Below, piece after piece: positions 1 to 31,782 of a DNA stretch of 64,000 nt. How positions within the stretch are numbered: the stretch's first letter is position 1; every line of letters begins with the position of its first letter. Under the pieces are notes generated by a model that did no database searches, had not been told where the DNA came from, and saw only the letters and a program-made list of their open reading frames with translations. Position numbers and translations under genes: made by a program. Source of the DNA: a virus (lineage: Duplodnaviria; Caudoviricetes); IMG/VR virus record IMGVR_UViG_3300029288_004944, positions 64,001-128,000 of that record. One strand, written 5' to 3'.

Positions 1-1072
1 TGCCTTCCACTAATTTTAAAAATGGCTTATCAGCACACTCAATAGCAAGAGAACTTTTGTCTTTAAATACTTCATTCTTTTGCATTTGTTGAGTCAATTC
101 TAACTCTCTTTCTCTGCCCGGTGGACGAGTATGCCATATAAGATCTAATGATCCCCACCCAATATCATATTGTGGAAATTCGGCATGAAGCAAATTAAAC
201 TTTTCCTGCACAGAAATTGCCATAAGCATTACATCTCTAAATCTACCCATAAACTTCTCATCACTAAAAGACTTTGGATCGTGTGGCAATATAACCTGCA
301 CAGGACTACTATTTAATCCTACTCCACATAGACATTGTCTCCTAAACCATTCATTTACAGGAAAATCATCCCAAGCCATTGCATGGACAGCCCTATATTC
401 CTGAAAACCCACAAACCTCATATTCCACTTTTTCAAGAAATTATATGTACCCTCATGCAAAACTGCCTGTCTTGCTTGCGTATCCTCATAATCGCCCTCA
501 CCCAAATGAATATAATTAAAATCAATTATCTCAGCAATCCTATATCCACCCATCCGAACTCTTAATGCAAAATCACACTCAACTTGATGAACTAAATTTT
601 CATCCCAACCACCCACATTTTTATATGTCTCTTTTCTTAACGCCCAGCATCCGCCAAGTATCCATTGCACTTCTTTATATCCATCCCTTATTATATAATC
701 ACTTCTTCCTGACATGTGCGGCCCGATCATTCCAATTTCAGGATATTTATCAAAATATAATTCAAATATTCTATTCCATCCATGATTAATAATAACACAA
801 TCAGATTCCAAATGAATTATACAATCATATTGAGCAAGATCAAATGCCCTATTAAATGTTGCAGATACTCCCATATTTTTTTCATTCTTAAAGATCTTAA
901 TACGGGGATCTTTTAATCCATTCAAATATTCTCCTACACCAACATCGGGAGAACAATCATCCACAATTATAATCTCAAAAGGATCTACACTATTCTTTAA
1001 AACAGATTCAACACACTTTTTCAAATAATCCGGCCTGTTATATACTGCAATACAAATTGAACTGCCCAACAT
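1..1072 (-). CDS. GT2-family glycosyltransferase, partial (runs off the window; not in the ORF track)
   Basis: Manual translation from ATG at 1072 (TAATG overlap): MLGSSICIAVYNRPDYLKKCVESV...IIIVDDCS...HLESD...GGWDE...FLKKWN...WDDFPVN; open to the window edge. Confidence 0.9.
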   Translation of the reverse strand, partial: MLGSSICIAVYNRPDYLKKCVESVLKNSVDPFEIIIVDDCSPDVGVGEYLNGLKDPRIKIFKNEKNMGVSATFNRAFDLAQYDCIIHLESDCVIINHGWNRIFELYFDKYPEIGMIGPHMSGRSDYIIRDGYKEVQWILGGCWALRKETYKNVGGWDENLVHQVECDFALRVRMGGYRIAEIIDFNYIHLGEGDYEDTQARQAVLHEGTYNFLKKWNMRFVGFQEYRAVHAMAWDDFPVNEWFRRQCLCGVGLNSSPVQVILPHDPKSFSDEKFMGRFRDVMLMAISVQEKFNLLHAEFPQYDIGWGSLDLIWHTRPPGRERELELTQQMQKNEVFKDKSSLAIECADKPFLKLVEG

Positions 1073-1848
1073 TATGGCCTCCCATTCGTTCTTACTCTCT
1101 CTTTCGCATTATAGTACTCACGCAAACAATTACCACACCTACTACAAGAATATTGACCCTTATATCCACAAGCATACACATAAGGATTATCTTTGAATAT
1201 TGCCATTACCTCATCAATCTTTTCCTGCTTTGGGCACCAATAGCTATTTAATGTTCTTTTTTTCCACATATAACAATCTTTATATTGCTCAGGTATTGTT
1301 TCATTATAATAAGCCATAAATGTTAAAACTACCGGAGTAGGCCTTACACCATCATTTTGAGTATAATACTTTATAGCCGGTTTTACAATATTTTCTATAT
1401 TCCACATAGAAGTCCTAATTCTGACAAACATTAGATTCTCCCAAGAAAAAACTTTATGAAAATCTGTATCTGTCATTTTACCAGGATTTATCGTCAATAC
1501 AACAGGCCCTGGAAAATCAGAAAGATTGGCAGGAATTGCTGTATTAAAAAAATAATCTTTGTACTGCTTGGCTGTTTTTTCAACTAATTCTCTTTGATTA
1601 TTTGAATCATTGCCATCATTTACACGCACAATTCTCCCCTTAGCCATTTCTTTAGTTGGGATATGAGGCAAATTCTCATCTAATGGCTCCAAATATGAAC
1701 GCCCCGACTGAAAAAAGCAGTCATCACAATTATTTGGACATCTTCCTGTTTGTGGTATACACTCTATTATACCTGAACCTTTTACCTTAGGATTCCACTT
1801 CCATTCTTCACTAAATAATTCTACGCCATTATTTATATCTCCACCCAT
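1072..1848 (-). CDS. Atypical radical-SAM-like Fe-S protein
   Basis: CPNNCDDC (CxxxCxxC) near the N-terminus, C-terminal CSRCGNC. Confidence 0.55.
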   Translation of the reverse strand: MGGDINNGVELFSEEWKWNPKVKGSGIIECIPQTGRCPNNCDDCFFQSGRSYLEPLDENLPHIPTKEMAKGRIVRVNDGNDSNNQRELVEKTAKQYKDYFFNTAIPANLSDFPGPVVLTINPGKMTDTDFHKVFSWENLMFVRIRTSMWNIENIVKPAIKYYTQNDGVRPTPVVLTFMAYYNETIPEQYKDCYMWKKRTLNSYWCPKQEKIDEVMAIFKDNPYVYACGYKGQYSCSRCGNCLREYYNAKERVRTNGRP

Positions 1849-1861
1849 AATATACCTCCCC

Positions 1862-2083
1862 TTATTTTAAATTCAATTCATTTGCTTTAAATAATTTTTT
1901 CACTATTTCTTCGTTTGCCACAACTTCACTCATATCGGCTCGCCACCATATCTTTTCGCCACTTATAGTTTCTATTAAAATTTGTGGGTGATCACAATAC
2001 GCTATCATTCTTCCCACTTCATTTATTCCACCTACTCCCCACTTAATTGCAATTAATTTTCCAAAATCCTTTTCGTCTAACAT
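1862..2083 (-). CDS. Hypothetical protein
   Basis: 73-aa ORF with GGAG SD directly downstream of the promoter at 2112-2140. Confidence 0.6.
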   Translation of the reverse strand: MLDEKDFGKLIAIKWGVGGINEVGRMIAYCDHPQILIETISGEKIWWRADMSEVVANEEIVKKLFKANELNLK

Positions 2084-2111
2084 TTAACCACTCCTTTATT
2101 TCAACATATCC

Positions 2112-2140
2112 ATTATAGCACATAATATGTCATTTGTCAA
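2112..2140 (-). promoter_or_regulatory. Sigma70 promoter TTGACA-N17-TATAAT with extended -10 TG
   Basis: Minus strand TTGACAAATGACATATTATGTGCTATAAT; identical 29-mer at 38089-38117. Confidence 0.9.
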
Positions 2141-2156: not shown

Positions 2157-3392
2157 CTATTTTGAATAAAAATCATTAAAGATTTTATCCCTATACATTA
2201 CAATCTCTTCTGCTGTTAAATGGCTTGTAGAAACCATTGCCCTATACTCTCCACTCCTACCTTTCATATAAGAATCATCATAAGATGTATCTCTTAATTT
2301 GATGTCATATTTATCCATATTTTCTCTTATAGTTGTCCCCGGATATGGGTAAAAAATATTGGCATCAAGACCATCCATACCTATACTCTTTGCCCTTTCA
2401 ATCCATTTCATTGTTTCAGCAATAGTCTCATGGCTTTCGCCCGGCAATCCTATTATAAAAAATGTCTTAATAATAAGCCCTGCATCTTTACACCTTTGAA
2501 TTATTTCCATATTCTTCTCAACGCTTGTCCTTTTGTTTACCATATCAAGCATTTTCTGAGATCCACTTTCACATCCAAATCCCACGTGAACACATCCTGT
2601 ATCTTTCATTATTTTAAGTTTTTCCAATGTTGTCGTGTCATCTCCACGAATCAAGCATCTGTAAATCATACCTTTCTTTAACAAATGCTCTCCTATACGT
2701 TTTACCCTGTCTTGATCCAAAGTAAACACATCATCCTGAAAAACAACTGCTCTATAACCCATATCATATAAAAGATCAATCTCTTTAATTACATTCTCCA
2801 CAGAATTTCTTCTTATCTTTCCTTTCCACATCGAACAAGAATTACAGAACGCACAATCCCACGCACATCCCCTACTTGACATAATAGATGTCGCAAGCCG
2901 ATCGCCCACATAATACTTATAACTCTTTAAATCAACAGCATTAAAATCCGGCATGGGCAAAGTTGCCATATCCTTTACATACATCCCCTCAATTATCCTA
3001 CTATATGGCTTTCGGCCCAATTCTATTTGACGAACAAGATACGACAGGGCATGCTCCCCTTCTCCCTTAACCACATAATCAAAATAATCTAAACACTCCT
3101 GCGGTCTAACCGTGGGGTGAACGCCACCGGCCACCAAAACAGACTTAGGATAGAGTTCTTTTAAACGTGTAGCGATTTTAATGGCGTAGGGGTATTGGGG
3201 GGTTGTTAAAGATAAACCATATATATCAGCCTGCTCATTAAATTCTTCATAATTATCTCCGGTCAAATGTCTCACAACCACATCATACCCGTCCTGCTTT
3301 AAAAATGCAGAAAGATACAATAACCCTAAAGGCGTATTAACTTTTTCATCCATTAAAAAAGGACTTGGTGTTTCTATTAAAATTATTTTCAT
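2157..3392 (-). CDS. Cobalamin-binding (class B) radical SAM protein, probable methyltransferase
   Basis: N-terminal PLGLLYL / GGVHPT / GEGE B12-binding domain, SRGCAWDCAFC motif, GCESGS, IIGLPGE. Confidence 0.9.
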   Translation of the reverse strand: MKIILIETPSPFLMDEKVNTPLGLLYLSAFLKQDGYDVVVRHLTGDNYEEFNEQADIYGLSLTTPQYPYAIKIATRLKELYPKSVLVAGGVHPTVRPQECLDYFDYVVKGEGEHALSYLVRQIELGRKPYSRIIEGMYVKDMATLPMPDFNAVDLKSYKYYVGDRLATSIMSSRGCAWDCAFCNSCSMWKGKIRRNSVENVIKEIDLLYDMGYRAVVFQDDVFTLDQDRVKRIGEHLLKKGMIYRCLIRGDDTTTLEKLKIMKDTGCVHVGFGCESGSQKMLDMVNKRTSVEKNMEIIQRCKDAGLIIKTFFIIGLPGESHETIAETMKWIERAKSIGMDGLDANIFYPYPGTTIRENMDKYDIKLRDTSYDDSYMKGRSGEYRAMVSTSHLTAEEIVMYRDKIFNDFYSK

Positions 3393-3667
3393 TCATTCCT
3401 CCATCTTGGTTTTTTTATTATATCACCATTTTCATTATAAAATTCTTGTTTAATCATTTTACCGCTTTCATACCATTTACGTATCAAAATATTGCCATTG
3501 GAATAAAAACCTTCAAAAGCAGGAAGATCATTATCTCTATGATATTGACCATATTTCCACCAAAAAAGACAACCAATGTTGCCATTAGGCCAATAACCAA
3601 TATATCTTGGTTTATCTGATTGATCATCAGGCCCAAGGCGTTTTATAATATCTTGTTTTATGTCCAT
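3389..3667 (-). CDS. MDIKQD-leader MORN-variant repeat protein (copy 1)
   Basis: Shared leader; YWPNG..HRDNDLPA..SNG..WY repeats. Confidence 0.8.
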   Translation of the reverse strand: MDIKQDIIKRLGPDDQSDKPRYIGYWPNGNIGCLFWWKYGQYHRDNDLPAFEGFYSNGNILIRKWYESGKMIKQEFYNENGDIIKKPRWRNE

Positions 3668-4344
3668 TTTAATTTACCACCTGCCATTATCAATTCTCTT
3701 GTTTTCACTACACCAACATTTGCGATCATATCTATTATAGATAGGCCGGGAATAAATTCTCCATACCTTTGAGTATATTTCGGTGTAGTATATTCTGAAA
3801 ACATAACCTTAATACCTGCTTTTTCAAATTTATCCATTTCTAAATATTTTCTACCACTTGGCCCAGATAGATAAGTATCTGCACCAACCTTTCTACAAAT
3901 AGAAATAAGTCTGTCAGTTCCGCTACTATCATTTTTACCACACGATTCAAAAACAGGCCTGAGTATCATCAACATATCCATTAATCTTCGTATCATCTCT
4001 TTTGTTGCAACTGATAATAATGTATTATTTTCAAAATTAGTATCTTTAAATAAATCCCATATTAATTTATTATCCTTCCCATAATAATCTTTAATAACAT
4101 TAAGATGCCTATACCACCAATAACAATTATCAATTTTTGTTTCTTCTATTGTTTGACCGAAATTACCAACAACAGGAATTGTTAACCATTTTGCCCCCTT
4201 ATCTGTTTTAATTTTTGTTCTATTATGATATCCCCCTTTTTTGAATTGAACGTTCTCTAAAATTACGAAAATATCCGATTGAGAAATTTTGTAGAAGAAA
4301 CCTGCATGGGGTAAATAGTCGGGTTGATGAATAGCAACAATCAT
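3658..4344 (-). CDS. WbqC-family protein
   Basis: AIHQPDYLP, NRTKIK, WLTIPV, YLSGPSGRKY, LSIID. Confidence 0.9.
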   Translation of the reverse strand: MIVAIHQPDYLPHAGFFYKISQSDIFVILENVQFKKGGYHNRTKIKTDKGAKWLTIPVVGNFGQTIEETKIDNCYWWYRHLNVIKDYYGKDNKLIWDLFKDTNFENNTLLSVATKEMIRRLMDMLMILRPVFESCGKNDSSGTDRLISICRKVGADTYLSGPSGRKYLEMDKFEKAGIKVMFSEYTTPKYTQRYGEFIPGLSIIDMIANVGVVKTRELIMAGGKLKWT

Positions 4345-6038
4345 TGTTTCCTCTTTTTATCCATTTTATAATCTTCTTCAATACTCCATTTTTTCTTGCC
4401 ACTCAATAACTCAGGATCCATATCTAAAAAATTATCTACCCCACCTAATACACGATTATCTCTTACTAAATCTACAACATCTTTCTCTCTATTAGTTCCA
4501 AGAGCAACAATGTTTCTAACTATCTCACAATTGTGATCTTGCACTGTAATCTTTTCAGTTTCTTTATTTAATTGTAATTGTGCAAATAATTGTTTACGGA
4601 ACATTTGATTCAATGGAAAATCATCCCAAAACATCATAAGAGGACTCTTGTAGTGAAAATACCCCAAATAAAATAAATTCCATTTTTTCAAAAATTCAAA
4701 AGCACCTCTATTAAAAGGCTCTTTTCTTTTATCCATTTGTTCTTCACTTAATGTCTTAATATGCTCATCATCCAAATGAGTCCAAGTCATACCTTTTAAT
4801 AATCCAACTCTATATCCACACAACCGAACTTTATAACAGTAATCTACCTCAAGATTTCCTGAAAACAATGCTTCATCCCATCCACCCAACTTATCAAAAA
4901 TTTCTCTTCTTGTCATCCAAATTCCGCCCATACAAAAGTCCACTTCATCAAAAATTCCCCTGTCAAGTCTTAAATGATGTCCTGGCTTATCCGGAGCCAA
5001 TATGCCAATTTCAGGATGTTCATCCATAACCTTAGCCATCTCATTAATCCAATCATTCTTATCAACCGTAATATCGCTTTCAATATGCACAAGGTACTTT
5101 CCATACGAACATTTAAAAGCCTTATTAAAATTCTGAGCAGGTCCGTGACAATCATTCTCATACCACACATTGATTCCATAATTCTTAGATTCAAAATCAC
5201 GAAGGACATTTTTTGTTGCTTCATCAGATGCATTATCCACAATGGTCATTCTATAATAATCAGAATTCCTATCTATAATGTCATTTAAAGTGGTTTTAAG
5301 GCTTTCTGGGCGGTTATAAGAAACAAGACAAACACTAACAGGGTATTTATCCCACTCTTTAACTTTAAGACCTTCCGGAGATATAATATGATTATAGTCT
5401 TTTGAGCCAGCCCCTGCCTTTAAAGGATCGGGATCTCTCTTTGTATAAAATTCATATTTATTTATTCTATCAATCTCATCCATATAACCAAAATGATGTA
5501 TTCTAACACAAGAATTTTTTAGTACATCACAACCAATAACCTCAGGAGAAACCGGGTTAGAATGGGCTATCACATCTCTTGGTCTCCATTCAAAATTATA
5601 TCTATAAGCCCTAACTGCATTAACCCTGCTATAATTACCATCAATCCTATAATGCTGCTCATCATTCCAATGATAAAAAAATGGAAAAGAATAAGCACGT
5701 GTTTCAGGCGTTGAACTCTCTATCAACTTTCTAATATCTTGTTCTTTACCCTCTTCAAACAATTCATCACCATCAAGCCATACAATAAAATCAGGATTAA
5801 ACTGTTTAACCTGATCATGCAAAAAATTCCAATCTCTCCCTCCATGGTAAGGTTTGTTTTGAAAAAATCTGAAATATTGTTTAAATTTATCTTTACTTGC
5901 ATCACACGCTTCGCCCGTTCCATCGGTTGATCCATCATCTAAAATCAATACACCATCCACGATCTTAGACATTTGATCCATTAATCTTGGCATATATTTA
6001 ACAACATTTTTTATTCGCATTAAACCAAAAATAATCAT
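4341..6038 (-). CDS. Two-domain GT2 glycosyltransferase fusion (likely start 6038)
   Basis: Domain 1 DDGSTDGT / WLDGDE / HFGY; domain 2 SYNRP / DNAS / HIESD / GGWDE; SD GAGG before the ATG at 6038. Confidence 0.85.
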   Translation of the reverse strand: MIIFGLMRIKNVVKYMPRLMDQMSKIVDGVLILDDGSTDGTGEACDASKDKFKQYFRFFQNKPYHGGRDWNFLHDQVKQFNPDFIVWLDGDELFEEGKEQDIRKLIESSTPETRAYSFPFFYHWNDEQHYRIDGNYSRVNAVRAYRYNFEWRPRDVIAHSNPVSPEVIGCDVLKNSCVRIHHFGYMDEIDRINKYEFYTKRDPDPLKAGAGSKDYNHIISPEGLKVKEWDKYPVSVCLVSYNRPESLKTTLNDIIDRNSDYYRMTIVDNASDEATKNVLRDFESKNYGINVWYENDCHGPAQNFNKAFKCSYGKYLVHIESDITVDKNDWINEMAKVMDEHPEIGILAPDKPGHHLRLDRGIFDEVDFCMGGIWMTRREIFDKLGGWDEALFSGNLEVDYCYKVRLCGYRVGLLKGMTWTHLDDEHIKTLSEEQMDKRKEPFNRGAFEFLKKWNLFYLGYFHYKSPLMMFWDDFPLNQMFRKQLFAQLQLNKETEKITVQDHNCEIVRNIVALGTNREKDVVDLVRDNRVLGGVDNFLDMDPELLSGKKKWSIEEDYKMDKKRKQ

Positions 6039-6919
6039 ATTATTCCTCTCCATTCTTTTTTTATATTCTCCCACATAGAAATATACCCTTCTAACCATTC
6101 AGCACATGGCCTATGAATATCGATCATATTTCTTTGTTCATCATTCATTAATCCTGAATCCCTAATCAATTTCCACTTACAAGCCATATATGCCCTACTC
6201 TTAATTGTTAAATATTCATCTTTCATCTTCGCTACAGCAGGATCTTCTTTTGTTCTTGTACCATTAACAGCATCCCACTCAACACTCCATGAAACAGGGT
6301 ACATAGATTTAGGCAGAGCATTAAACTCAGCATACAACTTTTGAATACCTGCCAATTTACAAACCAAATACATATCACTATCATAAGACTGATACACTAT
6401 ACCACCATCAAAATAATCTACATCAGATTCAATCCTGTTACGAATCTCTTTATTAAATTCAACACCATCATTCAATTTTGGAATAACAACATCTTTAAAT
6501 CTATGGTAAAAATCACAAATAGACTTTATATGCACATCTTTCTCAATAAACCATCCATATGGAATATTAAAACAATACTTTCCCCAATCTTCTTGTGGTC
6601 TAAACTCTCTTGCAAATTGCGTCCAGTCTTTTCTATTAGGACAAATATCCGAATCAAATACATACAACAAATTACTCTTAGATTGATTTATTCCGTAATT
6701 ATATGCCTCCGGAACTCCAAACCTACGTGGCAAATGTAATATCCTAATTCTTGGATCCTGCAATATTTTAAACCATTCTTGTGTCTGTGGCAACGCTTCA
6801 TTATCAAGAATAATCAACTCAAAATCCTCTGTAGTATTCTTAAATACCTGATCTACGCCATGCTTTAGCATATCCAAATCATTGTCGATCCACGAAAAAA
6901 GAGTAATAACACTAACCAT
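6035..6919 (-). CDS. GT2-family glycosyltransferase (divergent)
   Basis: FELIILDN, AYNYGI, FDSD motif. Confidence 0.7.
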   Translation of the reverse strand: MVSVITLFSWIDNDLDMLKHGVDQVFKNTTEDFELIILDNEALPQTQEWFKILQDPRIRILHLPRRFGVPEAYNYGINQSKSNLLYVFDSDICPNRKDWTQFAREFRPQEDWGKYCFNIPYGWFIEKDVHIKSICDFYHRFKDVVIPKLNDGVEFNKEIRNRIESDVDYFDGGIVYQSYDSDMYLVCKLAGIQKLYAEFNALPKSMYPVSWSVEWDAVNGTRTKEDPAVAKMKDEYLTIKSRAYMACKWKLIRDSGLMNDEQRNMIDIHRPCAEWLEGYISMWENIKKEWRGII

Positions 6920-7830
6920 TATTTATCTCCTTTAGGATAATACCATTGTGATAACCCACACTTCCAATCGTGGCAATCTTCACACATATCTCCTTTAAAA
7001 ATGCCTCGCACTTGCTCATCCCTACGTTTCTTTAATTTATTCCATGCCTGCTGTATTGTCATATTCTTTATATTACCAACAGGATAATTACCACCCCAAT
7101 CAGCATCGCACTGTATTATATTCCCATTTGAATGTATTGATATAGTTCTCATAATCCAAGGACATGGGAATCTTTTTACTTTGGCATTTCTTAACTCACT
7201 CATTTTAACACCATTCTTTCCCCATTCAAGAGCACGCCTTACCTTAACTGTTGCACCATGTTCTGTCCAATACTTTATAAAATATTTTTCTTCATGCTTA
7301 TTTTTTTCCGAAACAATAAATTGCAATACAATCTCCGGATTTTTCCATTCTTTATACTCTTTTAATAATATAGCACTCTTAATATTGTAGTCAACTTCAC
7401 TAAAATCTCCACCACACCTAATCTTATTATATGTATCTTCTGTAAAAGCATCCACACCAATAATAATCTTATCAAGACCTACGTTGTGCAACTTAGAAAA
7501 TACATCATAGGACAACAACATTCCGTTCGTATTCAACGATACATTCTTAATCCCTGATTTTTTTGCACTCTCAACCATTTTTATAATTTTATCTCTAAGC
7601 AATAATGGCTCTCCCATAAGAGCCGGCCACAATATTGTATTAGGATGTTCTGCCACCTCTAAAACAATCTTATTATATAATTTCATATCTAACATTTGCG
7701 GTTTTCTTTTTAAATCTTTCTGAGGACAAATTGAACAATGCAAATTACAAGAATTGGTTGGCTCAACTACAACCATAGCAGGAAAATCATAATCCATATT
7801 CCAAGTATCAGGATACTCTATTTTTTTCAT
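6919..7830 (-). CDS. Radical SAM protein with SPASM/twitch domain
   Basis: CNLHCSIC, GEPLL, NTNG, C-terminal CPW...QCD...CEDC. Confidence 0.9.
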   Translation of the reverse strand: MKKIEYPDTWNMDYDFPAMVVVEPTNSCNLHCSICPQKDLKRKPQMLDMKLYNKIVLEVAEHPNTILWPALMGEPLLLRDKIIKMVESAKKSGIKNVSLNTNGMLLSYDVFSKLHNVGLDKIIIGVDAFTEDTYNKIRCGGDFSEVDYNIKSAILLKEYKEWKNPEIVLQFIVSEKNKHEEKYFIKYWTEHGATVKVRRALEWGKNGVKMSELRNAKVKRFPCPWIMRTISIHSNGNIIQCDADWGGNYPVGNIKNMTIQQAWNKLKKRRDEQVRGIFKGDMCEDCHDWKCGLSQWYYPKGDK

Positions 7831-21739: not shown

Positions 21740-22203
21740 TTTGTTACCTCTATGTCTATGCCAAAATCTTTTTCAACACATTTCATAACTTTAAATCCTA
21801 CCTCTTCCAAAGATTCTGAAATCTTTTTAGCATCAAAACCCTGCTTATGAAATTGACCTTCATCCTGTTGCCCACCAAAAATAGACATAACTTTTTGACT
21901 ATCCCATTCACCCAACTCACGTTTTCTTATAAACTCTTTCGCACAAGCAAAAAAATCCGGAATTTTGATCCATAAATATCCACCATACTTAAGCACTCTA
22001 TACCAATCTTTCCGAATTACATCCCACTCACGACGACTAAAATGCTCTACAATATTAAGAGCCTGCATCCAATCAACTGAATTATCAGGAAAAGGCAACG
22101 GCAATCTCAAATCATGTTTAAGATCTGCCTTGGAATTATACAAGTCTACATTGACGCCATCTTTCAATAAATCTTCCCCACAACCAAGATTAATTCGGCT
22201 CAT
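21736..22203 (-). CDS. Methyltransferase type 11 (third paralog)
   Basis: INLGCG, LPFPDNSVD, VEHF, YRVLKYGG. Confidence 0.85.
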   Translation of the reverse strand: MSRINLGCGEDLLKDGVNVDLYNSKADLKHDLRLPLPFPDNSVDWMQALNIVEHFSRREWDVIRKDWYRVLKYGGYLWIKIPDFFACAKEFIRKRELGEWDSQKVMSIFGGQQDEGQFHKQGFDAKKISESLEEVGFKVMKCVEKDFGIDIEVTK

Positions 22204-24055: not shown

Positions 24056-24071
24056 ATAATTTATTCCCCCT

Positions 24072-24246
24072 TTATCTCGTTCTATATCTCGGAAACCATC
24101 TCCTACCAATAAACTCTTGATAATGACAATGCTTACAAACTTTATAACAATTTAAAGCACACTTCTTTCCATCTAATATTATTGGTTCATTACAATATAT
24201 CCAATAGTGATTACAATGGAAGTTTCCCCCTTTTATATTTTTTCAT
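24072..24246 (-). pseudogene. Frameshifted Cys-rich microprotein
   Basis: SD plus ATG at 24246; a one-base shift in the A6 or G5 run joins it to ...GNFHCNHYWIYC...[11 protein letters not shown]... Confidence 0.4.
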
Positions 24247-24247: not shown

Positions 24248-25135
24248 TTACCTCCTCGTTAAAAAACATATTATTATTGTCATTAAACCAACAATTATAA
24301 ACCAAATTAAATGATTCTTTTCTTTAAACCACTCGATAATATTATTCCACATATTTAAAAACCAATTAGATTTTATATTCTTAGACTTGGTATCCACAAG
24401 ATTCCACATATCATAAGCATATAAAGATATATAGTCATAACTAAGATAACAATATCCTTTATCACCAAATGAAGTTCCCCAACTATTCTTTACTTTAAAT
24501 AAATTTTTACTATCATCATACCCAACCACTGTCAAAGCATGCCCCCCAACACAACCTTCTTTTGAAGTATCGGGTAATGGAACAAGACCATCACTATTTG
24601 TATTAAAAAAACTATCATAAAGAGCCACAGCAATAAAAGCAGGTCCGTGTTCATATATGGATTGCTTTAACTCATCCACATTATTTATTCTCGCATATGC
24701 ACTTATTCTATAATTATATGCTTCATCTTTTAATATTTTTATCTTTTCTTGTGTTATCCTTGAAGCATTACTTAAACTATATGGCAAACTTAATTCCAAA
24801 CAATCTCCATTACTAACAAGAAAATCCATTGCATCCCTTGGGTACATTCCGTCAATACCAAGATCAGGCCTTTGAAGATATATCCAATCAGGCGAAAAAA
24901 TCAAATTTTCCTTAATATCAATCTTCTCTTCATATTCTTTAATTGCGGACAGTGCAAATGCTACACAAGATCCTTTTTGCCCCTGATCTCTTACTGACTG
25001 CATTTGAGATGTATAATCTATCAATGATGGAATTTGCAAAATATCTTTAACAAAATAATCTGCTATCTTGTAATCTCTATTATCTATTTTGTCTTTTAAA
25101 GCACCTAATGAATATTTATTTTTTTTCTCCAACAT
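24248..25135 (-). CDS. Papain-like C1 cysteine peptidase with C-terminal membrane anchor
   Basis: DQGQKGSCVAF, GGHA, KNSWG; terminal hydrophobic helix. Confidence 0.9.
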   Translation of the reverse strand: MLEKKNKYSLGALKDKIDNRDYKIADYFVKDILQIPSLIDYTSQMQSVRDQGQKGSCVAFALSAIKEYEEKIDIKENLIFSPDWIYLQRPDLGIDGMYPRDAMDFLVSNGDCLELSLPYSLSNASRITQEKIKILKDEAYNYRISAYARINNVDELKQSIYEHGPAFIAVALYDSFFNTNSDGLVPLPDTSKEGCVGGHALTVVGYDDSKNLFKVKNSWGTSFGDKGYCYLSYDYISLYAYDMWNLVDTKSKNIKSNWFLNMWNNIIEWFKEKNHLIWFIIVGLMTIIICFLTRR

Positions 25136-27034: not shown

Positions 27035-27877
27035 TCATTTTTTCTCCATATCCCCAGAAACAAAGGGTATTTCTTCCCAATCATGATTTTTCCTTATTTT
27101 AAGATTTTTTTCATGCACAGATTTCAGTAAACTGTAATCCAAATCAAGATCTTTATATAAACCCATAAGAGCAACCATGTCCTTATAAAAACATTTTCCA
27201 CCATATCCCTTAGATGTAGTTACGTCTAAATGTGAATCATGTATTCTTTTGTCTGCTACCACCATTTTTTTAACTTCTTCATATTTAATTCCCAATTTCT
27301 CACACAAAGCATACATCTCATTTGCAAAAATAACCTTTGTAGACAAAAAACAGTTAGCCATATATTTTACCATTTCAGCCGTAGTTAGATCAGTACCAAA
27401 TATGGGAGTCTTTGAAAACCCATGCATTCTATATAAATCCATAACTCTAATTCTCACTCTATCATTATCTGATCCTACCACTACCCTATCCGTATTCACA
27501 AAATCTTCCAAATAATTGGCCTCAGTTAAAAACTCAGGATTAAAACAAAAATTACAATCAGGATATTTTTTAGAATAATTGCGTGTTGTGCCAGGAACAA
27601 CTGTTGACTTAATTGTAATAATCTTATCCGTACTTTTAGCATAATATGAAATTTCCTCCATATTCTCATCTATAATAGATAGATCAATCTTATTATCTTT
27701 ATACAGAGTAGGTAGACACACAAAAATATGTTCAGCAAACTTTACCACACTTTCAAGAGTGTCAGATTCCTGAAACTTATCATAATATTTTATATCACAA
27801 AACTTCTTAAACCCATACTCGACAGCATTCCCGACAATTCCTTTGCCAATAATCCCTATATTCTTACCTGCAATCAT
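27035..27877 (-). CDS. UDP-glucose/GDP-mannose dehydrogenase family, short form
   Basis: GKGIVG, KSTVVPG, NPEFL, AEMVKY, GYGGKCF; C-terminal domain absent. Confidence 0.88.
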   Translation of the reverse strand: MIAGKNIGIIGKGIVGNAVEYGFKKFCDIKYYDKFQESDTLESVVKFAEHIFVCLPTLYKDNKIDLSIIDENMEEISYYAKSTDKIITIKSTVVPGTTRNYSKKYPDCNFCFNPEFLTEANYLEDFVNTDRVVVGSDNDRVRIRVMDLYRMHGFSKTPIFGTDLTTAEMVKYMANCFLSTKVIFANEMYALCEKLGIKYEEVKKMVVADKRIHDSHLDVTTSKGYGGKCFYKDMVALMGLYKDLDLDYSLLKSVHEKNLKIRKNHDWEEIPFVSGDMEKK

Positions 27878-28842
27878 TACACTCCTCCTCTATGAAATTC
27901 CGGAAAAATATCATACACACACCAATCATTCGTTGTTTTCAATTGTTCAATAGTCTTTTTATACGCATTAATGTCTCTACCATACAACCACTTCATATAA
28001 ATCTTCATAAACCCCGTATTTATAGGTATTGTTCCCCATAACGTTGCCCAACCATTAATTCCGGTTTTTAATCCATAAGTCTTATCTACATCCCAAAAAT
28101 TACACAATCTTGACCATTTGGCCCTAAAATAATTAGCCGACTTATTAGCCCAAGCATCTCTATTGGGATTCCATCCGGCCTTATTACTTGCCTCTTTATG
28201 TATAGCCACAACATCTTTGATCATGGCAAGATCTTTTCCTGACCACCTAACAGCAAGAGAATAATCAAAATCTTCAAATCCATAAAAATAATTAGGATCG
28301 GCGTATCCTCCACCACCATTTAAATATTCTCCTGTAGATATTGAATCATCATTCATTATAGAATAAAAATTATTCATATAATCAATTGTCTTGCGTGGGA
28401 TTAACATACAATAGGTAATCAAAATATCCGTATTTATATAATCACCCATATCGATCTGATTACCGTGAGCATAGCTATAAGTACCAACAATACCAACATT
28501 TTCTGAATGCTTTTCATAGCATTCAATTAATTTTTGATCCCATTCTTCTTTTATGTCAATATCCGTATCACATCTTAATATATATTCACATTGGGCTTTT
28601 TTCATTGCCAAATTCATACCTTTGCCCAAACCAATATTTGCTCTGTTAGTTATTACTTTAATTTTATCATTTTTTAGACTGTTAAGATATTTAGATATTG
28701 AACCATCTTCGCTATTATCAGAAATAACGATCTCATAGGGATTTTTAGTATATTTTGGAATATCGGAAATAAACTTATAAAAATCTTCACGCAGTACGTG
28801 TTCCACAGCACAAATAGAAACTTTTGGAAATGTATACGGCAT
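27877..28842 (-). CDS. GT2-family glycosyltransferase
   Basis: ISDN, NIGLGKGMN, CDTD, GFEDFD, RAKW. Confidence 0.85.
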   Translation of the reverse strand: MPYTFPKVSICAVEHVLREDFYKFISDIPKYTKNPYEIVISDNSEDGSISKYLNSLKNDKIKVITNRANIGLGKGMNLAMKKAQCEYILRCDTDIDIKEEWDQKLIECYEKHSENVGIVGTYSYAHGNQIDMGDYINTDILITYCMLIPRKTIDYMNNFYSIMNDDSISTGEYLNGGGGYADPNYFYGFEDFDYSLAVRWSGKDLAMIKDVVAIHKEASNKAGWNPNRDAWANKSANYFRAKWSRLCNFWDVDKTYGLKTGINGWATLWGTIPINTGFMKIYMKWLYGRDINAYKKTIEQLKTTNDWCVYDIFPEFHRGGV

Positions 28843-28904: not shown

Positions 28905-29201
28905 TTAACTTTTATTAATAGAAACAGTAAAACCAAAGCCTACGATTGTAATAATAACACCCACCCAAAATAAAATTGGAACAAGAAAAATTCTAACAAT
29001 TCCAAATGCAATTCCACTGCTTAACATTGGATGTTGCTGAACAGAATCTACTAACATCTTTATACCACCGTACCCTGCCCACATCAATGAAAAGAAAATA
29101 ATCGTTATCAAACCTAAGAACATAATCAACAATCCAAGCAATGTAGCAATTCTATCCCAATTTCTCTTTCTTTTATATGCCTTCATATTTACTTCGAGCA
29201 T
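28905..29201 (-). CDS. Two-TM membrane protein
   Basis: Two long hydrophobic segments. Confidence 0.65.
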   Translation of the reverse strand: MLEVNMKAYKRKRNWDRIATLLGLLIMFLGLITIIFFSLMWAGYGGIKMLVDSVQQHPMLSSGIAFGIVRIFLVPILFWVGVIITIVGFGFTVSINKS

Positions 29202-29777: not shown

Positions 29778-30055
29778 AGTTCCTTATCTCCCTTTTTAAA
29801 ATATTTATCAAAATTCTTATCATCTGTATACCATTTTTCTAACTCAAAAAAACCACATTCTTCGGCGCAAGCCAAACCATCCCAAGATCTTATTCTACTC
29901 CCATCACAAAACTTGCTCTTCTTATTATCACACCTCACTTCTCCATCAAACGATTGTTTATGTTTACACCAATGACAATGCATTCCATTCTTATTGCCGA
30001 GCCACGACATTGCAACTTTTGACCATTTTTCAGAAATTTTATTTACTTTTCTCAT
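29774..30055 (-). CDS. Cys-rich hypothetical protein
   Basis: CHWC...C...C...CAEEC. Confidence 0.55.
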   Translation of the reverse strand: MRKVNKISEKWSKVAMSWLGNKNGMHCHWCKHKQSFDGEVRCDNKKSKFCDGSRIRSWDGLACAEECGFFELEKWYTDDKNFDKYFKKGDKEL

Positions 30056-30894
30056 CTCATTACTCCAGGAGATGCATCCTTCAACTCATTATCTTCTGGC
30101 AACTTGCCACCACATATGGGAACACCATCATACATATTTGGGCTTGGATTAAATAACTTCCCCATTTTATGAGCATTCATATATTTGGCATATGTTTTAT
30201 ATTTATTTGTTCCCTCCAATCCCAATATTGGATTTATATCAAGCATTTTATTTTCAAACGAAGGATGGTTACATACAATCCAACCTGCTTGCTGTAAAGA
30301 TCCGTACCAAAACACAGGAGCCATTATACCACGAGTATCCATAAATCCAACATCTTTGATCGCAGACTTACGCATTAACTGACTATGTCCATTAAATCCG
30401 TGACCTTGTTTATTACAAATAAGTATTGTCTTTCCATTTTCAGTTAAAACTCTCGCAGGATCCATTTTAACCACATTATCAAAAAATGGTTTACCATCAG
30501 CAGTCATAATTAATCCTGTCTTAGGTATAGCATCCATTATATCCTCATATTCTTTTAACCATTCTTTTTCCACTATGATATCGTTTAACACTCTACCATA
30601 ATATTGAATATCCTCTCTATCCATATATTTCTGCCAAAATTCATTCACAGGCCTCGCATACAGTTCGTTCTTATCATAAAAAGTGTAATGAACTTCTATG
30701 TAAGGATATTCTCTTTCAAGAAAAGAACTTTCCTGTAAATACTTTAAAAATTCAGCAGTTCCGTCCATTGATCCATTATCTACAATTTCAAGTACATGAG
30801 GATTTGTAGTGTTTTGCAAATAATTCCATAATACGGTCTTTGTATACTCAACTCTATTAAAATTTAGAAATAGTACAGCACTTTTTTTATCCAC
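30052..30894 (-). CDS. GT2-like protein, FNRVEY paralog family
   Basis: FNRVEY, DNGSMDGT, LND, EGTNKYKTY, NMY. Confidence 0.72.
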   Translation of the reverse strand: MDKKSAVLFLNFNRVEYTKTVLWNYLQNTTNPHVLEIVDNGSMDGTAEFLKYLQESSFLEREYPYIEVHYTFYDKNELYARPVNEFWQKYMDREDIQYYGRVLNDIIVEKEWLKEYEDIMDAIPKTGLIMTADGKPFFDNVVKMDPARVLTENGKTILICNKQGHGFNGHSQLMRKSAIKDVGFMDTRGIMAPVFWYGSLQQAGWIVCNHPSFENKMLDINPILGLEGTNKYKTYAKYMNAHKMGKLFNPSPNMYDGVPICGGKLPEDNELKDASPGVMR

Positions 30895-30907
30895 ACAACC
30901 TCCCTAT

Positions 30908-31153
30908 TTATTTTATTTCTTTCATATAATCTTTCATTCTGTTTATCTCTTTTTCCAATGCATCATTAAACTCCTGTTCTGTCTGCACCTCATCGGGAGA
31001 ATACCATTCTAATTTACCATCAGGAAATTTAATCCTGATAGTTTCTTTTCTACCGAGAATCTCAGGCAGAAAAGATGCCATTTCAAAAACTTCACCTTTA
31101 GCCGCTTCCATTGTTTTATATCTTAGGACATAGACAGAATCGCCCTTTTTCAT
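30908..31153 (-). CDS. Hypothetical protein (SH3-like pattern)
   Basis: MKKGDSVYV...IKFPDG. Confidence 0.5.
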   Translation of the reverse strand: MKKGDSVYVLRYKTMEAAKGEVFEMASFLPEILGRKETIRIKFPDGKLEWYSPDEVQTEQEFNDALEKEINRMKDYMKEIK

Positions 31154-31782
31154 TTTATATCACCCTTTAATACTTTTTGTATAACATCGGCAACAGGGCC
31201 AACATCACACACCTTTTTACACCAATACCTTCCTGAACTTCCCGTCATATCCCACAATGCATCCACAGAAAAACCGGATTTATTCAATAATGCCCTTGTT
31301 TGTGCATGATTAGTCACAATAACATGATCGGGAATTCCTATATAACATTCATGTGGAATCATTAAAACTAACTTACCCCCCACTTTCAGCACTCTATTTG
31401 CTTCATATAAGGCTATTAGTGGAGAAATTGTATGCTCTAAAATCTCCCACATTATAACACCATCAAACATATTACTTGCCCAAGGTAATTCATGAACATC
31501 TCCAATTACTATTGATCCACCAATCCATTCGCCATATTTCTCAATCGCTTTCTTCTTTTCCACTTCGTTTATGGTTATACCAAACACAATTTTATCTTGA
31601 TTATGCAATTCATTCATGGCTACACCCGTTCCACAACCAATATCCAAAATTATTTTACAGTCATTTAAATAATCTAAATTACCCTTTCCAAGAGGCAAAG
31701 AAAGATCTTCTGTTCCACGATCCCTGTCTGCCATTTCCTTGGGCATTAACTTTAAATATCTATTCCACTTTTCTTGATCCAT
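31150..31782 (-). CDS. Class I SAM-dependent methyltransferase
   Basis: ILDIGCGTG, GDVHELP, ILEH, RVLKVGG. Confidence 0.88.
   Translation of the reverse strand: MDQEKWNRYLKLMPKEMADRDRGTEDLSLPLGKGNLDYLNDCKIILDIGCGTGVAMNELHNQDKIVFGITINEVEKKKAIEKYGEWIGGSIVIGDVHELPWASNMFDGVIMWEILEHTISPLIALYEANRVLKVGGKLVLMIPHECYIGIPDHVIVTNHAQTRALLNKSGFSVDALWDMTGSSGRYWCKKVCDVGPVADVIQKVLKGDIK

What the first reader, a model, noticed from the sequence alone, without database searches (positions are those of the whole stretch)
1..31782. Very large glycan synthesis and decoration island in a phage-like genome
Seen: 12 GT2-fold genes (13 domains), 7 SAM methyltransferases, a B12 radical SAM, two SPASM/twitch radical SAMs, two WbqC, a formyltransferase, a PIG-L deacetylase, a GNAT, a DegT aminotransferase, an RfbE-like epimerase and a sugar-nucleotide dehydrogenase. 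A Gmd/Rmd-like SDR (39817) and a flavin mutase-like enzyme (56975) lie further on. No flippase, Wzy, Wzz, ABC exporter or priming phosphoglycosyltransferase is in the window, and the GTs look soluble. Established: these families build and cap unusual O-antigen sugars (for example the Bordetella wbm locus). Inference: a cytoplasmic pathway that glycosylates virion proteins or hypermodifies DNA with amino-, formyl-, acyl- and methyl-decorated sugars.
Basis: partly seen in the sequence, partly recalled or inferred. Interest (0 to 1): 0.8.

Follow-up and report, generated by a model that had tools for sequence, protein, structure and literature searches.

The report
Giant sugar-building island in jumbo phage
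An uncultured jumbo phage gives about 40 kb to a self-contained set of soluble enzymes that make rare decorated sugars and join them into glycans; it is far larger than the phage sugar clusters I could compare it with, and what the glycan is attached to is still unknown.

Summary
The window is bases 64001-128000 of a 139-kb IMG/VR phage contig. The contig has a portal and a terminase, the terminase is 34% identical to Bacillus phage G gp1, and CheckV rates it 45% complete.

All 17 GT2 domains of the contig lie in one 40.6-kb, 55-ORF block (window -8862 to 31782). The same block holds:
- 7 SAM methyltransferases and 4 radical SAM enzymes, one more than reported
- 2 WbqC genes, plus DegT, formyltransferase, a PseH-like GNAT and PIG-L
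- 2 sugar nucleotidyltransferases and several SDRs

No protein on the contig has more than 3 predicted membrane helices, and there is no ABC-exporter signature with a Walker A motif. ThyS, C5-methylase, TET (control uninformative) and integrase were not found.

Three results are new:
- A collinear 12-gene core cassette (35-72% identity) occurs on two unrelated metagenome contigs.
- WbqC folds like the cysteine ligase BshC (Z 14.9). It recurs beside PIG-L, or beside SPASM, dehydratase and DegT genes, in 53 viral contigs.
- RecA inside the island is 80% identical to a Candidatus Desantisbacteria RecA, a lineage with LpxC.

The acceptor is unproven. My estimates are virion proteins 0.45, host envelope 0.30, DNA 0.05. 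This scan has noted smaller phage glyco-islands on other DNA.

The parts
2..1072 (-). GT2 glycosyltransferase; the full gene is 384 aa and runs past the window start to contig 63918
   Evidence: PF00535 at 80 bits
1072..1848 (-). Fourth radical SAM enzyme, of a phage-specific GP88/DUF5131-like family
   Evidence: CX3CX2C at residues 37-44 plus a C-terminal Cys cluster. Atlas neighbours are 93-100% viral and labelled 'Radical SAM protein family', TM 0.88.
2112..2140 (-). Perfect sigma-70 consensus promoter with extended -10, in one of the few intergenic gaps of the island
   Evidence: 12 of 12 matches with TG. It lies in the 73-bp gap at 2084-2156.
2157..3392 (-). B12-binding radical SAM enzyme; a sugar C-methylase or rearrangement enzyme by inference
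   Evidence: PF02310 plus PF04055. Best NCBIfam match is HpnJ at 162 bits, below its cut-off.
3389..3667 (-). Small MORN-like protein with the phage's shared N-terminal tag; not a glycan enzyme
3658..4344 (-). WbqC paralogue 2; BshC-like ligase fold by inference from its paralogue
   Evidence: PF08889 at 190 bits. 36-38% identical to the other copy.
4341..6098 (-). Two-domain GT2 glycosyltransferase, 585 aa
   Evidence: Two PF00535 stretches
6035..6919 (-). GT2 glycosyltransferase; part of the conserved core cassette
   Evidence: PF00535. 51% identical to the L200 homologue.
6919..7830 (-). Radical SAM/SPASM enzyme; core cassette
   Evidence: PF04055 plus PF13186. 53% identical to the L200/L201 homologue.
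7827..8768 (-). Radical SAM/SPASM (twitch-like) enzyme; core cassette
   Evidence: 53% identical to the L200/L201 homologue.
8765..9475 (-). WbqC paralogue 1; predicted ATP-dependent ligase that acylates an amino sugar
   Evidence: PF08889 at 243 bits. Model pLDDT 95. Best structural match is BshC: Z 14.9, rmsd 3.2, 224 of 236 residues. 72% identical to P0404.
9472..10188 (-). Class I SAM methyltransferase
10185..10958 (-). Formyltransferase (Fmt/ArnA-like); N-formylation of an amino sugar by inference
   Evidence: PF00551 at 111 bits; NCBIfam
10955..11587 (-). Class I SAM methyltransferase
11566..12027 (-). 153-aa protein of unknown function inside the core block
   Evidence: No Pfam, PDB or Atlas relative
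12015..12761 (-). GT2 glycosyltransferase with a DDDD motif; core cassette
   Evidence: PF00535 at 83 bits
12758..13504 (-). GT-A glycosyltransferase of the five-member paralogue subfamily (alignment A1)
   Evidence: Weak PF00535 (21 bits). 27-32% identical to paralogues.
13501..14100 (-). PIG-L/BshB-like de-N-acetylase; core cassette
   Evidence: PF02585. BshB1 is the only NCBIfam match. 64% identical to the L201 homologue.
14097..15052 (-). Two tandem small SAM methyltransferases (14097-14579 and 14576-15052), 46% identical to each other
15040..17611 (-). Three tandem GT-A glycosyltransferases of the A1 subfamily (15040-15933, 15930-16718, 16706-17611)
   Evidence: PF00535. Model pLDDT 85 with a GT-A fold; nearest structures are TarP, TarS, RmlT and SpsA.
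17612..18427 (-). GT2 glycosyltransferase
18420..18932 (-). GNAT N-acetyltransferase, PseH-like
   Evidence: TIGR03585 (PseH) at 98.5 bits, above its 93.1 cut-off
18932..20050 (-). DegT-family sugar aminotransferase; closest to PseC/LegC
   Evidence: PF01041 at 286 bits. 54% identical to the L201 homologue.
20062..20919 (-). Class I SAM methyltransferase
20819..21739 (-). GT2 glycosyltransferase
21736..22203 (-). Small SAM methyltransferase, paralogue of those at 14097 and 14576
23054..24109 (-). RecA, host-derived and not a glycan gene; interrupts the island
   Evidence: PF00154 at 451 bits. 80% identical to the RecA of a Ca. Desantisbacteria MAG, which lies next to alaS there.
24248..25135 (-). 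Papain-family C1 peptidase with a C-terminal hydrophobic anchor; role unknown
   Evidence: PF00112
25610..26677 (-). SDR NDP-sugar epimerase/dehydratase
   Evidence: PF01370. No NCBIfam equivalog passes its cut-off.
27035..27877 (-). NDP-sugar dehydrogenase that lacks the C-terminal domain
   Evidence: PF03721 plus PF00984 only. It covers profile positions 62-297 of 413. Translation shown.
27877..28842 (-). GT2 glycosyltransferase
28905..29201 (-). 98-aa protein with three hydrophobic segments; the only multi-pass membrane candidate in the island; function unknown
30052..30894 (-). GT-A glycosyltransferase of the A1 subfamily (the twelfth GT2-fold gene)
   Evidence: PF00535 at 19.7 bits. 26-33% identical to A1 paralogues.
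31150..31782 (-). Class I SAM methyltransferase; right-hand end of the island
39817..40800 (-). Outlying NDP-sugar 4,6-dehydratase; closest to LegB, RmlB and Gmd
   Evidence: PF16363 at 246 bits
56975..58249 (-). Outlying UDP-galactopyranose-mutase-like flavoenzyme
   Evidence: phmmer match to T. cruzi UGM (4dsg), E 3e-21

Best explanation
The island is a phage-borne, self-contained cytoplasmic glycan factory.

Shown by homology:
- Two sugar-1-phosphate nucleotidyltransferases activate sugars.
- 4,6-dehydratase, epimerase and reductase SDRs and a mutase-like flavoenzyme reshape them.
- A DegT aminotransferase installs an amine.

Inferred decoration steps:
- The amine is N-acetylated by the PseH-like GNAT or N-formylated by the formyltransferase.
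- Alternatively it is acylated with an amino or carboxylic acid by the two WbqC enzymes. They have the fold of the cysteine ligase BshC.
- The PIG-L enzyme frees further amines from N-acetyl sugars, in a BshB/BshC-like pairing.
- Seven SAM methyltransferases and four radical SAM enzymes add methyl groups or carry out radical rearrangements.

Inferred assembly: 17 soluble GT-A domains, most with an intact DxD-type motif, join the sugars into one or more long, non-repetitive, capped glycans.

Inferred by analogy only: the acceptor is most likely virion protein (capsid, tail or fibre). The particle would then carry its own sugar coat, as shown for chloroviruses, mimivirus fibrils and mycobacteriophages.
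For: Viral origin.

Enzyme inventory.

Operon-like packing: 55 ORFs in 40,645 bp with only five gaps over 60 bp.

Old, diverged glycosyltransferase paralogues (20-33% identity), so the set is a maintained toolkit and not a recent duplication. Most domains keep a DxD-type motif. The GT-A fold model has pLDDT 85.

Island G+C of 0.31-0.35 matches the rest of the phage, so it is a long-term resident.

A collinear core cassette at 35-72% identity occurs on unrelated contigs of 47-49% G+C. That points to a functional unit under selection.

WbqC matches BshC with Z 14.9 over 224 of 236 residues. It recurs beside PIG-L, or beside SPASM, dehydratase and DegT genes, in 53 viral contigs.

The 139 kb holds no membrane or export component and no integrase.

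Precedent: the virus-encoded machineries reviewed in PMC9614988 that combine nucleotide-sugar synthesis, multi-domain glycosyltransferases and methyltransferases all decorate virions. These are the Mimivirus 9-12-gene cluster and the PBCV-1 proteins A064R and A061L. Mycobacteriophage capsid and tail-tube glycosylation is cited in PMC12619734.
Against: No acceptor has been identified. No Ser/Thr-rich tract occurs in the virion proteins present, and no structural gene sits inside or next to the island.

Only about 45% of the genome is held, so membrane or export genes, or DNA-modification genes, could lie elsewhere.

The nearest relatives of the A1 glycosyltransferase subfamily include very large multi-GT2 proteins; the one that carries a name is bacterial, and such proteins resemble polysaccharide-assembly enzymes.

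Sigma-70-consensus promoters in gaps at 2112-2140 and 28870-28898 suggest transcription by host RNA polymerase, possibly early.

The probable host lineage makes LPS.

Some parts look damaged. There is an in-frame TAA 13 codons into the triple-GT2 gene, and the dehydrogenase is truncated.
Confidence: 0.45

Rival explanations
1. Host-envelope remodelling. The phage enzymes extend or replace the host's lipid-linked O-antigen, capsule or S-layer glycan on the cytoplasmic face of the membrane. The host supplies the priming transferase and the export machinery. The changed surface would block superinfection or hide receptors during a long infection.
For: Iyer et al. 2021 (PMC7824862, section 3.4.10) propose this role for the cyanophage sugar clusters. 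The enzyme families are those of O-antigen loci, and O-antigen glycosyltransferases are likewise soluble. Relatives of the A1 subfamily are giant multi-GT2 proteins (the one named is bacterial). The many methyltransferases fit the chain-capping step of ABC-transporter-dependent pathways (my own knowledge). RecA links the phage to Ca. Desantisbacteria, which has LpxC. Sigma-70-type promoters lie inside the island. Structural neighbours include TarP, a phage-encoded GT2 that modifies host wall teichoic acid.
Against: No membrane step, flippase, polymerase, ligase or exporter appears on 139 kb, and no integrase. As far as I know, proven phage modifications of host glycans use 1-3 genes in temperate phages. 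This island has 36 or more glycan genes. The cyanophage hypothesis has never been tested. Seventeen GT domains are far more than a repeat-unit polysaccharide needs.
Confidence: 0.3
2. DNA hypermodification. The glycosyltransferases attach decorated sugars to hydroxymethylated or otherwise activated bases of the phage genome, to evade restriction and CRISPR.
For: Phage GT-A enzymes do glycosylate DNA, with up to three hexoses (Pyle et al., 10.1101/2023.12.21.572611). BFVD hits at ranks 37 and 41 are 'TET-associated glycosyltransferase' proteins. A DNA N6/N4 methylase and a half sliding clamp fused to a sugar nucleotidyltransferase lie inside the island.
Against: No thymidylate-synthase-like hydroxymethylase, C5-methylase or TET match on 139 kb. 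Known DNA-glycan clusters have 1-2 glycosyltransferases next to those enzymes. This island has 17 domains plus formyl, acyl and methyl tailoring. Four N6/N4 DNA methylases elsewhere on the contig (three with clear Pfam matches), plus the one in the island, suggest that ordinary bases are available. The structural similarity is generic GT-A (TM about 0.45).
Confidence: 0.05
3. A different product. The island could make a soluble or lipid-linked glycoconjugate or an aminoglycoside-like metabolite. It could instead glycosylate non-virion phage or host proteins, and not build a coat at all.
For: B12 radical SAM, twitch/SPASM radical SAM, PIG-L deacetylase and DegT aminotransferase are also the hallmark set of aminoglycoside and cyclitol pathways. 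NCBIfam matches include AprD4 and HpnJ and BshB1. WbqC resembles BshC, which makes a small-molecule thiol.
Against: Seventeen GT domains and two NDP-sugar activation routes point to an oligo- or polysaccharide. No cyclitol synthase or resistance gene was seen. No NCBIfam equivalog for such pathways reached its cut-off.
Confidence: 0.15

Closest known systems
Mimivirus fibril glycosylation cluster (R135-L143, 9-12 genes; PMC9614988)
   Same: It is virus-encoded and independent of the host. It combines a 4,6-dehydratase, a DegT-type aminotransferase (L136), an N-acetyltransferase (L142), several soluble glycosyltransferases and methyl or pyruvyl tailoring, and it makes bacterial-type 4-amino-4,6-dideoxy sugars.
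   Different: It belongs to a eukaryotic giant virus, and its cluster includes the acceptor protein (R135). It has only about 5 glycosyltransferases and no radical SAM, WbqC, formyltransferase or PIG-L. In Mimivirus the glycan and its target have been shown by experiment. Here neither has.
Chlorovirus PBCV-1 capsid glycan machinery (A064R, A061L, A111/114R; PMC9614988)
   Same: It uses multi-domain soluble GT-A proteins (three domains in one polypeptide) together with separate SAM methyltransferases that cap terminal sugars. Synthesis is cytoplasmic.
   Different: The PBCV-1 genes are scattered, not in one island, and there are far fewer enzymes. The acceptor, the major capsid protein, is known.
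Mycobacteriophage virion glycosylation (Che8, Corndog, Myrna; Freeman et al. 2023, known here only through PMC12619734)
   Same: Tailed phages encode glycosyltransferases that coat capsid and tail-tube subunits.
   Different: Those phages carry only 2-4 glycosyltransferases and rely largely on host nucleotide sugars. Their acceptor sites are C-terminal extensions, and nothing comparable was found on this contig.
Cyanophage 'LPS' gene clusters (P-SSM2, 15-gene cluster; PMC7824862)
   Same: They are jumbo or large phage clusters of SDR epimerases/dehydratases, nucleotidyltransferases and several glycosyltransferase families. Their function is untested.
   Different: This island is about three times larger and lies in a phage G-like lineage. 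The review reports only 'smaller complements' for that group. This island also adds radical SAM, WbqC, formyl and PIG-L chemistry.
Bacterial O-antigen loci for N-formyl or N-acyl amino sugars (Bordetella wbm, E. coli wbq; from my own knowledge)
   Same: They share the enzyme families: DegT, formyltransferase, WbqC, GT2 and methyltransferases.
   Different: Those loci are cellular and include a priming transferase, Wzx/Wzy or an ABC exporter, and a chain-length regulator. None of these is on this contig.
Bacillithiol and mycothiol synthesis (BshB/BshC, MshB/MshC)
   Same: A PIG-L-family deacetylase is paired with a class I tRNA-synthetase-like ligase that acylates the freed sugar amine. WbqC matches BshC with Z 14.9 and MshC with Z 7.2.
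   Different: WbqC is half the length of BshC. It has no detectable sequence similarity to any solved structure. It sits in glycan clusters, not thiol clusters. Its substrate and its use of ATP are untested.

Membership tests
GT2 / GT-A glycosyltransferases | Match to PF00535 above the gathering score | tested here: met
   15 of the 17 domain matches pass the 23.3-bit cut-off. Two fall below it at 20.6 and 19.7 bits.
GT2 / GT-A glycosyltransferases | DxD-type metal/nucleotide motif and N-terminal D-x-x-S-x-D motif | tested here: met
   In the alignment of the 17 domains, 16 keep the last Asp of the motif. Eight have strict DxD and three have ExD. The domain at window 15930-16718 is degenerate, with NDK.
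GT2 / GT-A glycosyltransferases | GT-A Rossmann-like fold | tested here: met
   The A1 subfamily model has pLDDT 85. Foldseek gives E about 1e-8 to 1e-9 against TarP, TarS, RmlT, SpsA and K4CP.
Virus-encoded virion glycosylation systems (Mimivirus, chlorovirus, mycobacteriophage) | Viral genome encodes its own soluble glycosyltransferases and nucleotide-sugar enzymes | tested here: met
Virus-encoded virion glycosylation systems (Mimivirus, chlorovirus, mycobacteriophage) | Identifiable acceptor: a structural gene in or beside the cluster, or Ser/Thr-rich or C-terminal acceptor tags on virion proteins | tested here: inconclusive
   No structural gene lies in the island. The highest Ser+Thr content in any 25-residue window is 44%. 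The capsid and tail genes are probably in the missing 55% of the genome.
Virus-encoded virion glycosylation systems (Mimivirus, chlorovirus, mycobacteriophage) | Glycan demonstrably attached to virion protein | not testable with these tools
   This needs purified particles and glycoproteomics.
Bacterial O-antigen / capsule loci | Cellular chromosomal context | tested here: not met
   The contig is a phage contig with portal and terminase, all genes on one strand, and an IMG/VR record.
Bacterial O-antigen / capsule loci | Priming phosphoglycosyltransferase, Wzx/Wzy or an ABC exporter in the locus | tested here: not met
   No protein on the contig has more than 3 hydrophobic segments. No ABC signature occurs with a Walker A motif. 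This covers only the 139 kb held.
Phage DNA sugar-hypermodification clusters (hmC/hmU or 5mYOX based) | Base-activating enzyme (thymidylate-synthase-like hydroxymethylase, or C5-methylase plus TET/5mYOX) beside the glycosyltransferase | tested here: not met
   PF00303 and PF00145 gave no match, and their controls rang. PF12851 gave no match, but its control rang nowhere, so that part is inconclusive.
Pseudaminic acid pathway (PseB, C, H, G, I, F) | PseH N-acetyltransferase | tested here: met
   TIGR03585 at 98.5 bits against a 93.1 cut-off
Pseudaminic acid pathway (PseB, C, H, G, I, F) | PseC and PseB equivalogs and the PseI (NeuB-type) synthase | tested here: not met
   PseC scores 220 bits against a 423 cut-off, and PseB 37 against 408. 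No PF03102 match on the contig. I therefore do not file the island as a pseudaminic acid pathway; only a PseH-like step is present.
dTDP-L-rhamnose pathway (RmlA-D) | All four equivalogs | tested here: not met
   The RmlA-like (201 of 361 bits), RmlB-like (157 of 365) and RmlD-like (69 of 224) proteins are all below their cut-offs. No RmlC was detected.
BshC/MshC-like class I synthetase-fold ligases (proposed class for WbqC) | Shared catalytic-domain fold | tested here: met
   BshC 4wbd gives Z 14.9, rmsd 3.2 and 224 of 236 residues aligned. Class I LysRS gives Z 12.8 and MshC Z 7.2.
BshC/MshC-like class I synthetase-fold ligases (proposed class for WbqC) | ATP-dependent ligation of an acid to a sugar amine | not testable with these tools
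   Only context supports it. WbqC sits beside PIG-L, or beside DegT and a dehydratase, in 53 viral contigs.
Phage G-like jumbo phages (group 3.2 of PMC7824862) | Terminase similarity to phage G | tested here: met
   34% identity over 83% of the query, E 8e-49. Phage G is the only good hit among 50,697 phage records.

The most novel reading that the evidence does not exclude
This phage makes the most elaborate virus-encoded glycan known for any bacteriophage. The product would be a long, non-repetitive coat on the virion, made of amino sugars that are aminoacylated (by WbqC, a previously unassigned BshC-like ligase), formylated, acetylated and C- or O-methylated (partly by radical SAM chemistry). 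It would be a bacterial-virus counterpart of the mimivirus fibril glycocalyx. The WbqC/SPASM/DegT and PIG-L/WbqC modules would be a widespread and undescribed sugar-tailoring toolkit of phages.
Probability: 0.35. Interest if true: 0.8.

Novelty: new variant of a known kind. Interest (0 to 1): 0.6.

Why it matters
Phage-encoded glycan clusters are known, but they are small and almost none has been tested. This island has 36 or more glycan genes. By its enzyme content it would let a phage make a complex glycan without relying on host sugar-nucleotide pathways.

If the product coats the virion, sugar shielding becomes a general strategy of large phages, including phages of uncultured groundwater bacteria. 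That would affect how phage particles are recognised, grazed on, adsorbed and detected.

If the product remodels the host surface, this would be the most extensive such reprogramming known.

Independently of the target, the work gives a testable function for the uncharacterised WbqC family: acylation of sugar amines. It also defines a compact conserved cassette that can be expressed and assayed.

Tried and rejected
1. Finding sister phages. Terminase, B12 radical SAM and P0404 scans of IMG/VR gave no relative. The RecA scan gave at most 62% identity. A contig-end protein found nothing in the metagenomes. The lineage therefore looks isolated.

2. Extending the contig.

3. Host call from WbqC. 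The 44% match in the Desantisbacteria MAG is not special, because many proteins, most of them unnamed, score 45-57%. I rejected it as host evidence. The host call rests on RecA alone.

4. Synteny with Desantisbacteria loci. None was found around the WbqC or B12 radical SAM homologues there.

5. The suspicion that the Desantisbacteria RecA contig is itself a mis-binned phage fragment. I rejected this because recA is followed there by alaS, which is a chromosomal arrangement.

6. Ser/Thr mucin-like acceptor tags, a lead from earlier findings of this scan. None was found.

7. The cytidylyltransferase-like gene at 54195-54776 as a teichoic-acid or heptose enzyme. I rejected this: it is NadD.

8. 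The 328-aa neighbour at contig 54174-55160 as a sugar enzyme. It is NIF3-like, so the island's left edge is set at contig base 55138.

9. Inferring acceptor type from glycosyltransferase fold neighbours. The matches are generic GT-A with TM about 0.5 and carry no information about the acceptor.

10. The 153-aa ORF at 11566-12027 and the 98-aa membrane ORF. No relative was found.

11. LR756511 (a 595-kb published huge phage) and Flavobacterium phage immuto. Both carry only small clusters, namely a DegT-GNAT pair with a few neighbours and 12 genes respectively.

Full report
**Where the window lies.** The window is bases 64001-128000 of a single 139,457-bp IMG/VR virus record that CheckV rates 45% complete. 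That implies a genome of roughly 300 kb. Identical proteins also occur on a 216,802-bp contig in another collection. All of the roughly 200 ORFs lie on the minus strand. They cover 96% of the sequence, G+C is 0.30-0.36 and GC skew is about -0.38. A portal (contig 133-1791) and a large terminase (contig 2825-4483) match PHROG families. The terminase is 34% identical to gp1 of Bacillus phage G, which is the only good match among 50,697 phage records. The rest of the window holds typical jumbo-phage cargo:
- SSB, AAA+ and ClpX-like ATPases, and homing endonucleases
- a full NAD salvage set (NadE, NAPRTase, NadD)
- N6/N4 DNA methylases (four on the contig outside the island, three of them with clear Pfam matches in the window), SNF2 helicase, SbcCD and an anaerobic NrdD

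No integrase was found.

**The observation.** A whole-contig search finds 17 GT2 domain matches, and all of them lie between contig 58396 and 94864. Two of the twelve in-window GT2 genes fall below the Pfam cut-off. They belong to a five-member paralogue subfamily whose other members pass it. A model of that subfamily (pLDDT 85) has a GT-A fold nearest to TarP, TarS, RmlT and SpsA. Most domains keep a DxD-type motif.

The island is larger than reported. It begins at contig 55138, which is 8.9 kb left of the window. That stretch holds:
- an RmlD-like reductase and an RmlA-like nucleotidyltransferase
- a 927-aa protein with three GT2 domains, plus a further GT2
- a second nucleotidyltransferase fused to the first two domains of a beta sliding clamp

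Window 1072-1848, which has no Pfam match, carries a CX3CX2C motif. It belongs to a phage-specific radical-SAM-like family, so the island has four radical SAM enzymes. In total the island has 55 ORFs in 40,645 bp, with five gaps over 60 bp. About 36 of the ORFs are glycan-related. The remaining ORFs are RecA, a papain-like peptidase, a NUMOD3 endonuclease, a DNA methylase and small ORFs. Five other phage records of 216-481 kb, chosen because they contain a GT2, have only 3-7 GT2 matches each.

**What the enzymes say.** Only one NCBIfam equivalog passes its cut-off: the GNAT as PseH (98.5 against 93.1 bits). DegT is closest to PseC/LegC and the outlying dehydratase to LegB/RmlB/Gmd. The formyltransferase is closest to Fmt/ArnA, the B12 radical SAM to HpnJ, and PIG-L to BshB1. 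All of these are below their cut-offs. No NeuB/PseI is present and no RmlC was seen. The phage therefore makes its own variants and not a textbook pathway.

WbqC has no assigned function and no sequence relative in the PDB. A deep-alignment model (pLDDT 95) superposes on the bacillithiol cysteine ligase BshC with Z 14.9 over 224 of 236 residues. Class I LysRS follows at Z 12.8 and the mycothiol ligase MshC at Z 7.2. In 53 IMG/VR contigs, WbqC sits beside a PIG-L deacetylase, or beside SPASM radical SAM, 4,6-dehydratase and DegT genes. The PIG-L plus WbqC pair mirrors BshB plus BshC. I therefore infer that WbqC acylates a sugar amine with an amino or carboxylic acid. This rests on fold and context, not on an assay.

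**A conserved core.** WbqC copy 1 has a 72% identical homologue on two JGI metagenome contigs of 47-49% G+C. These contigs carry the same genes in nearly the same order: GT2, DegT, small methyltransferase, GT2, PIG-L, methyltransferase, formyltransferase, WbqC, SPASM, SPASM, GT2. Identity is 35-72%. Several genes there are split or internally deleted. Window 6035-20050 is thus an expanded version of a transferable 12-gene cassette. The phage has added a GNAT, four more glycosyltransferases and two methyltransferases. The island's G+C equals that of the rest of the phage, and its glycosyltransferase paralogues are only 20-33% identical. It is an old, maintained part of the genome.

**Host.** RecA, inside the island and in the window's most G+C-rich 2-kb bin, is 80% identical to the RecA of a Candidatus Desantisbacteria MAG. 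The next bacteria reach about 71% and the best IMG/VR phage 62%. In that MAG recA is followed by alaS, which is a chromosomal arrangement. Both genomes held for the phylum have LpxC. The host is therefore probably an anaerobic, LPS-bearing groundwater bacterium. My confidence in this is moderate, because it rests on one gene.

**The target.** Nothing on the 139 kb is a polytopic membrane protein, and there is no ABC ATPase. For DNA modification there is no positive evidence, since ThyS-like, C5-methylase and TET searches were all negative. Published DNA-glycan clusters have one or two glycosyltransferases next to such enzymes. The clamp-nucleotidyltransferase fusion is unique among 5.8 billion proteins in its length range and is a genuine half clamp. 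On its own it does not indicate a DNA acceptor.

Between virion and host envelope the evidence is indirect. Every virus-encoded machinery that combines nucleotide-sugar synthesis, multi-domain glycosyltransferases and methyltransferases, and whose product is known, decorates the virion (PMC9614988; PMC12619734). As far as I know, proven host-glycan modification by phages uses a few genes in temperate phages. On the other side:
- no acceptor tag is visible
- sigma-70-consensus promoters lie in the island's gaps
- the glycosyltransferase relatives are giant multi-GT2 proteins, the one named being bacterial
- the host-envelope idea is the published hypothesis for cyanophage clusters

I put virion protein at 0.45, host envelope at 0.30, another product at 0.15 and DNA at 0.05.

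**Novelty.** Phage sugar clusters are known. The review of 224 jumbo phages calls the 15-gene P-SSM2 cluster a major one of its kind and reports only smaller sets in phage G-type phages. Cultured Flavobacterium phages carry about 12 genes. This scan has noted many smaller phage glyco-islands on other DNA. This island is a much larger and chemically richer variant, with radical SAM, WbqC, formyl and PIG-L steps. It also yields a testable function for WbqC.

Noticed in passing
Left of the window: contig 60799-62154 (L007:10799-12154, minus strand): A 451-aa protein fuses the first two of the three domains of a bacterial beta sliding clamp (DnaN) to a complete mannose/heptose-1-phosphate-type nucleotidyltransferase. 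No other protein of 248-790 aa among 5.8 billion has this architecture. No other dnaN match is on the contig.
   Followed up: partly
Left of the window: contig about 60205-60246 (L007:10205-10246): The 927-aa triple-GT2 gene has an in-frame TAA 13 codons after what looks like its true start (MVKIIVPLFNGLQ*). The listed ORF restarts 4 codons later and lacks the first beta strand of domain 1. This could be a nonsense mutation, a sequencing error or read-through.
   Followed up: partly
window 23054-24109: RecA is 80% identical to the RecA of a Ca. Desantisbacteria MAG. The next bacteria are at about 71% and phages at 62% or less. It lies in the most G+C-rich 2-kb bin of the window. It looks like a recent host-to-phage transfer and is the only host clue.
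   Followed up: yes
window 8765-9475 and 3658-4344; loci L202-L254: WbqC (PF08889, function unknown) folds like BshC and class I tRNA-synthetase catalytic domains. It recurs in 53 viral contigs next to PIG-L, or next to SPASM, dehydratase and DegT genes. This suggests an undescribed module for acylating sugar amines.
   Followed up: yes
L200:1-6066 and L201:1-8483 (JGI contigs Ga0066637_10010675 and Ga0210051_1010037): These contigs hold a collinear copy of the core cassette in a 47-49% G+C genome. Several genes there are split or internally deleted. That may be decay, or frameshift errors in the assemblies. Whether the carrier is a phage or a bacterium is unknown.
   Followed up: partly
window 24248-25135: A papain-family (C1) cysteine peptidase with a C-terminal hydrophobic anchor lies inside the island next to RecA. 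This is unusual for a phage, and its role (lysis, processing) is unknown.
   Followed up: no
window 27035-27877: The NDP-sugar dehydrogenase keeps its Rossmann and central domains but ends before the C-terminal nucleotide-sugar-binding domain. The two small ORFs that follow are unrelated; one is a zinc ribbon.
   Followed up: partly
window 2112-2140, 28870-28898, 38089-38117, 39474-39502 (minus strand): Perfect or near-perfect sigma-70 promoters with an extended -10 sit exactly in intergenic gaps, although promoter-like sites overall are no commoner than in shuffled sequence. A sigma-70 region-4 protein is encoded at contig 52530-53258.
   Followed up: no
window 40833-41624, 42442-43599, 54195-54776: A complete NAD+ salvage set: NadE, nicotinate phosphoribosyltransferase and NadD.
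   Followed up: partly
window 45354-46967, 51044-52078, 55444-57033, and contig 56019-56702: Several paralogous N6/N4 DNA methyltransferases. One of them is embedded in the glycan island.
   Followed up: no
window 56975-58249: The UDP-galactopyranose-mutase-like protein matches the eukaryotic-type enzyme of Trypanosoma cruzi best (E 3e-21), followed by other eukaryotic-type (about 510-residue) UGM structures. No prokaryotic-type (short) UGM appears among the matches.
   Followed up: no
window 37575-37758: A 72-bp tandem repeat (2.6 copies, 69% matches) lies inside the NUMOD3 homing-endonuclease gene. It corresponds to the repeated NUMOD3 motifs.
   Followed up: no
whole contig: Strand bias is extreme. 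All of the roughly 200 genes are on one strand and GC skew is -0.38 throughout. Two loci of the putative host MAG show the same direction of skew along their genes (0.18-0.24).
   Followed up: no
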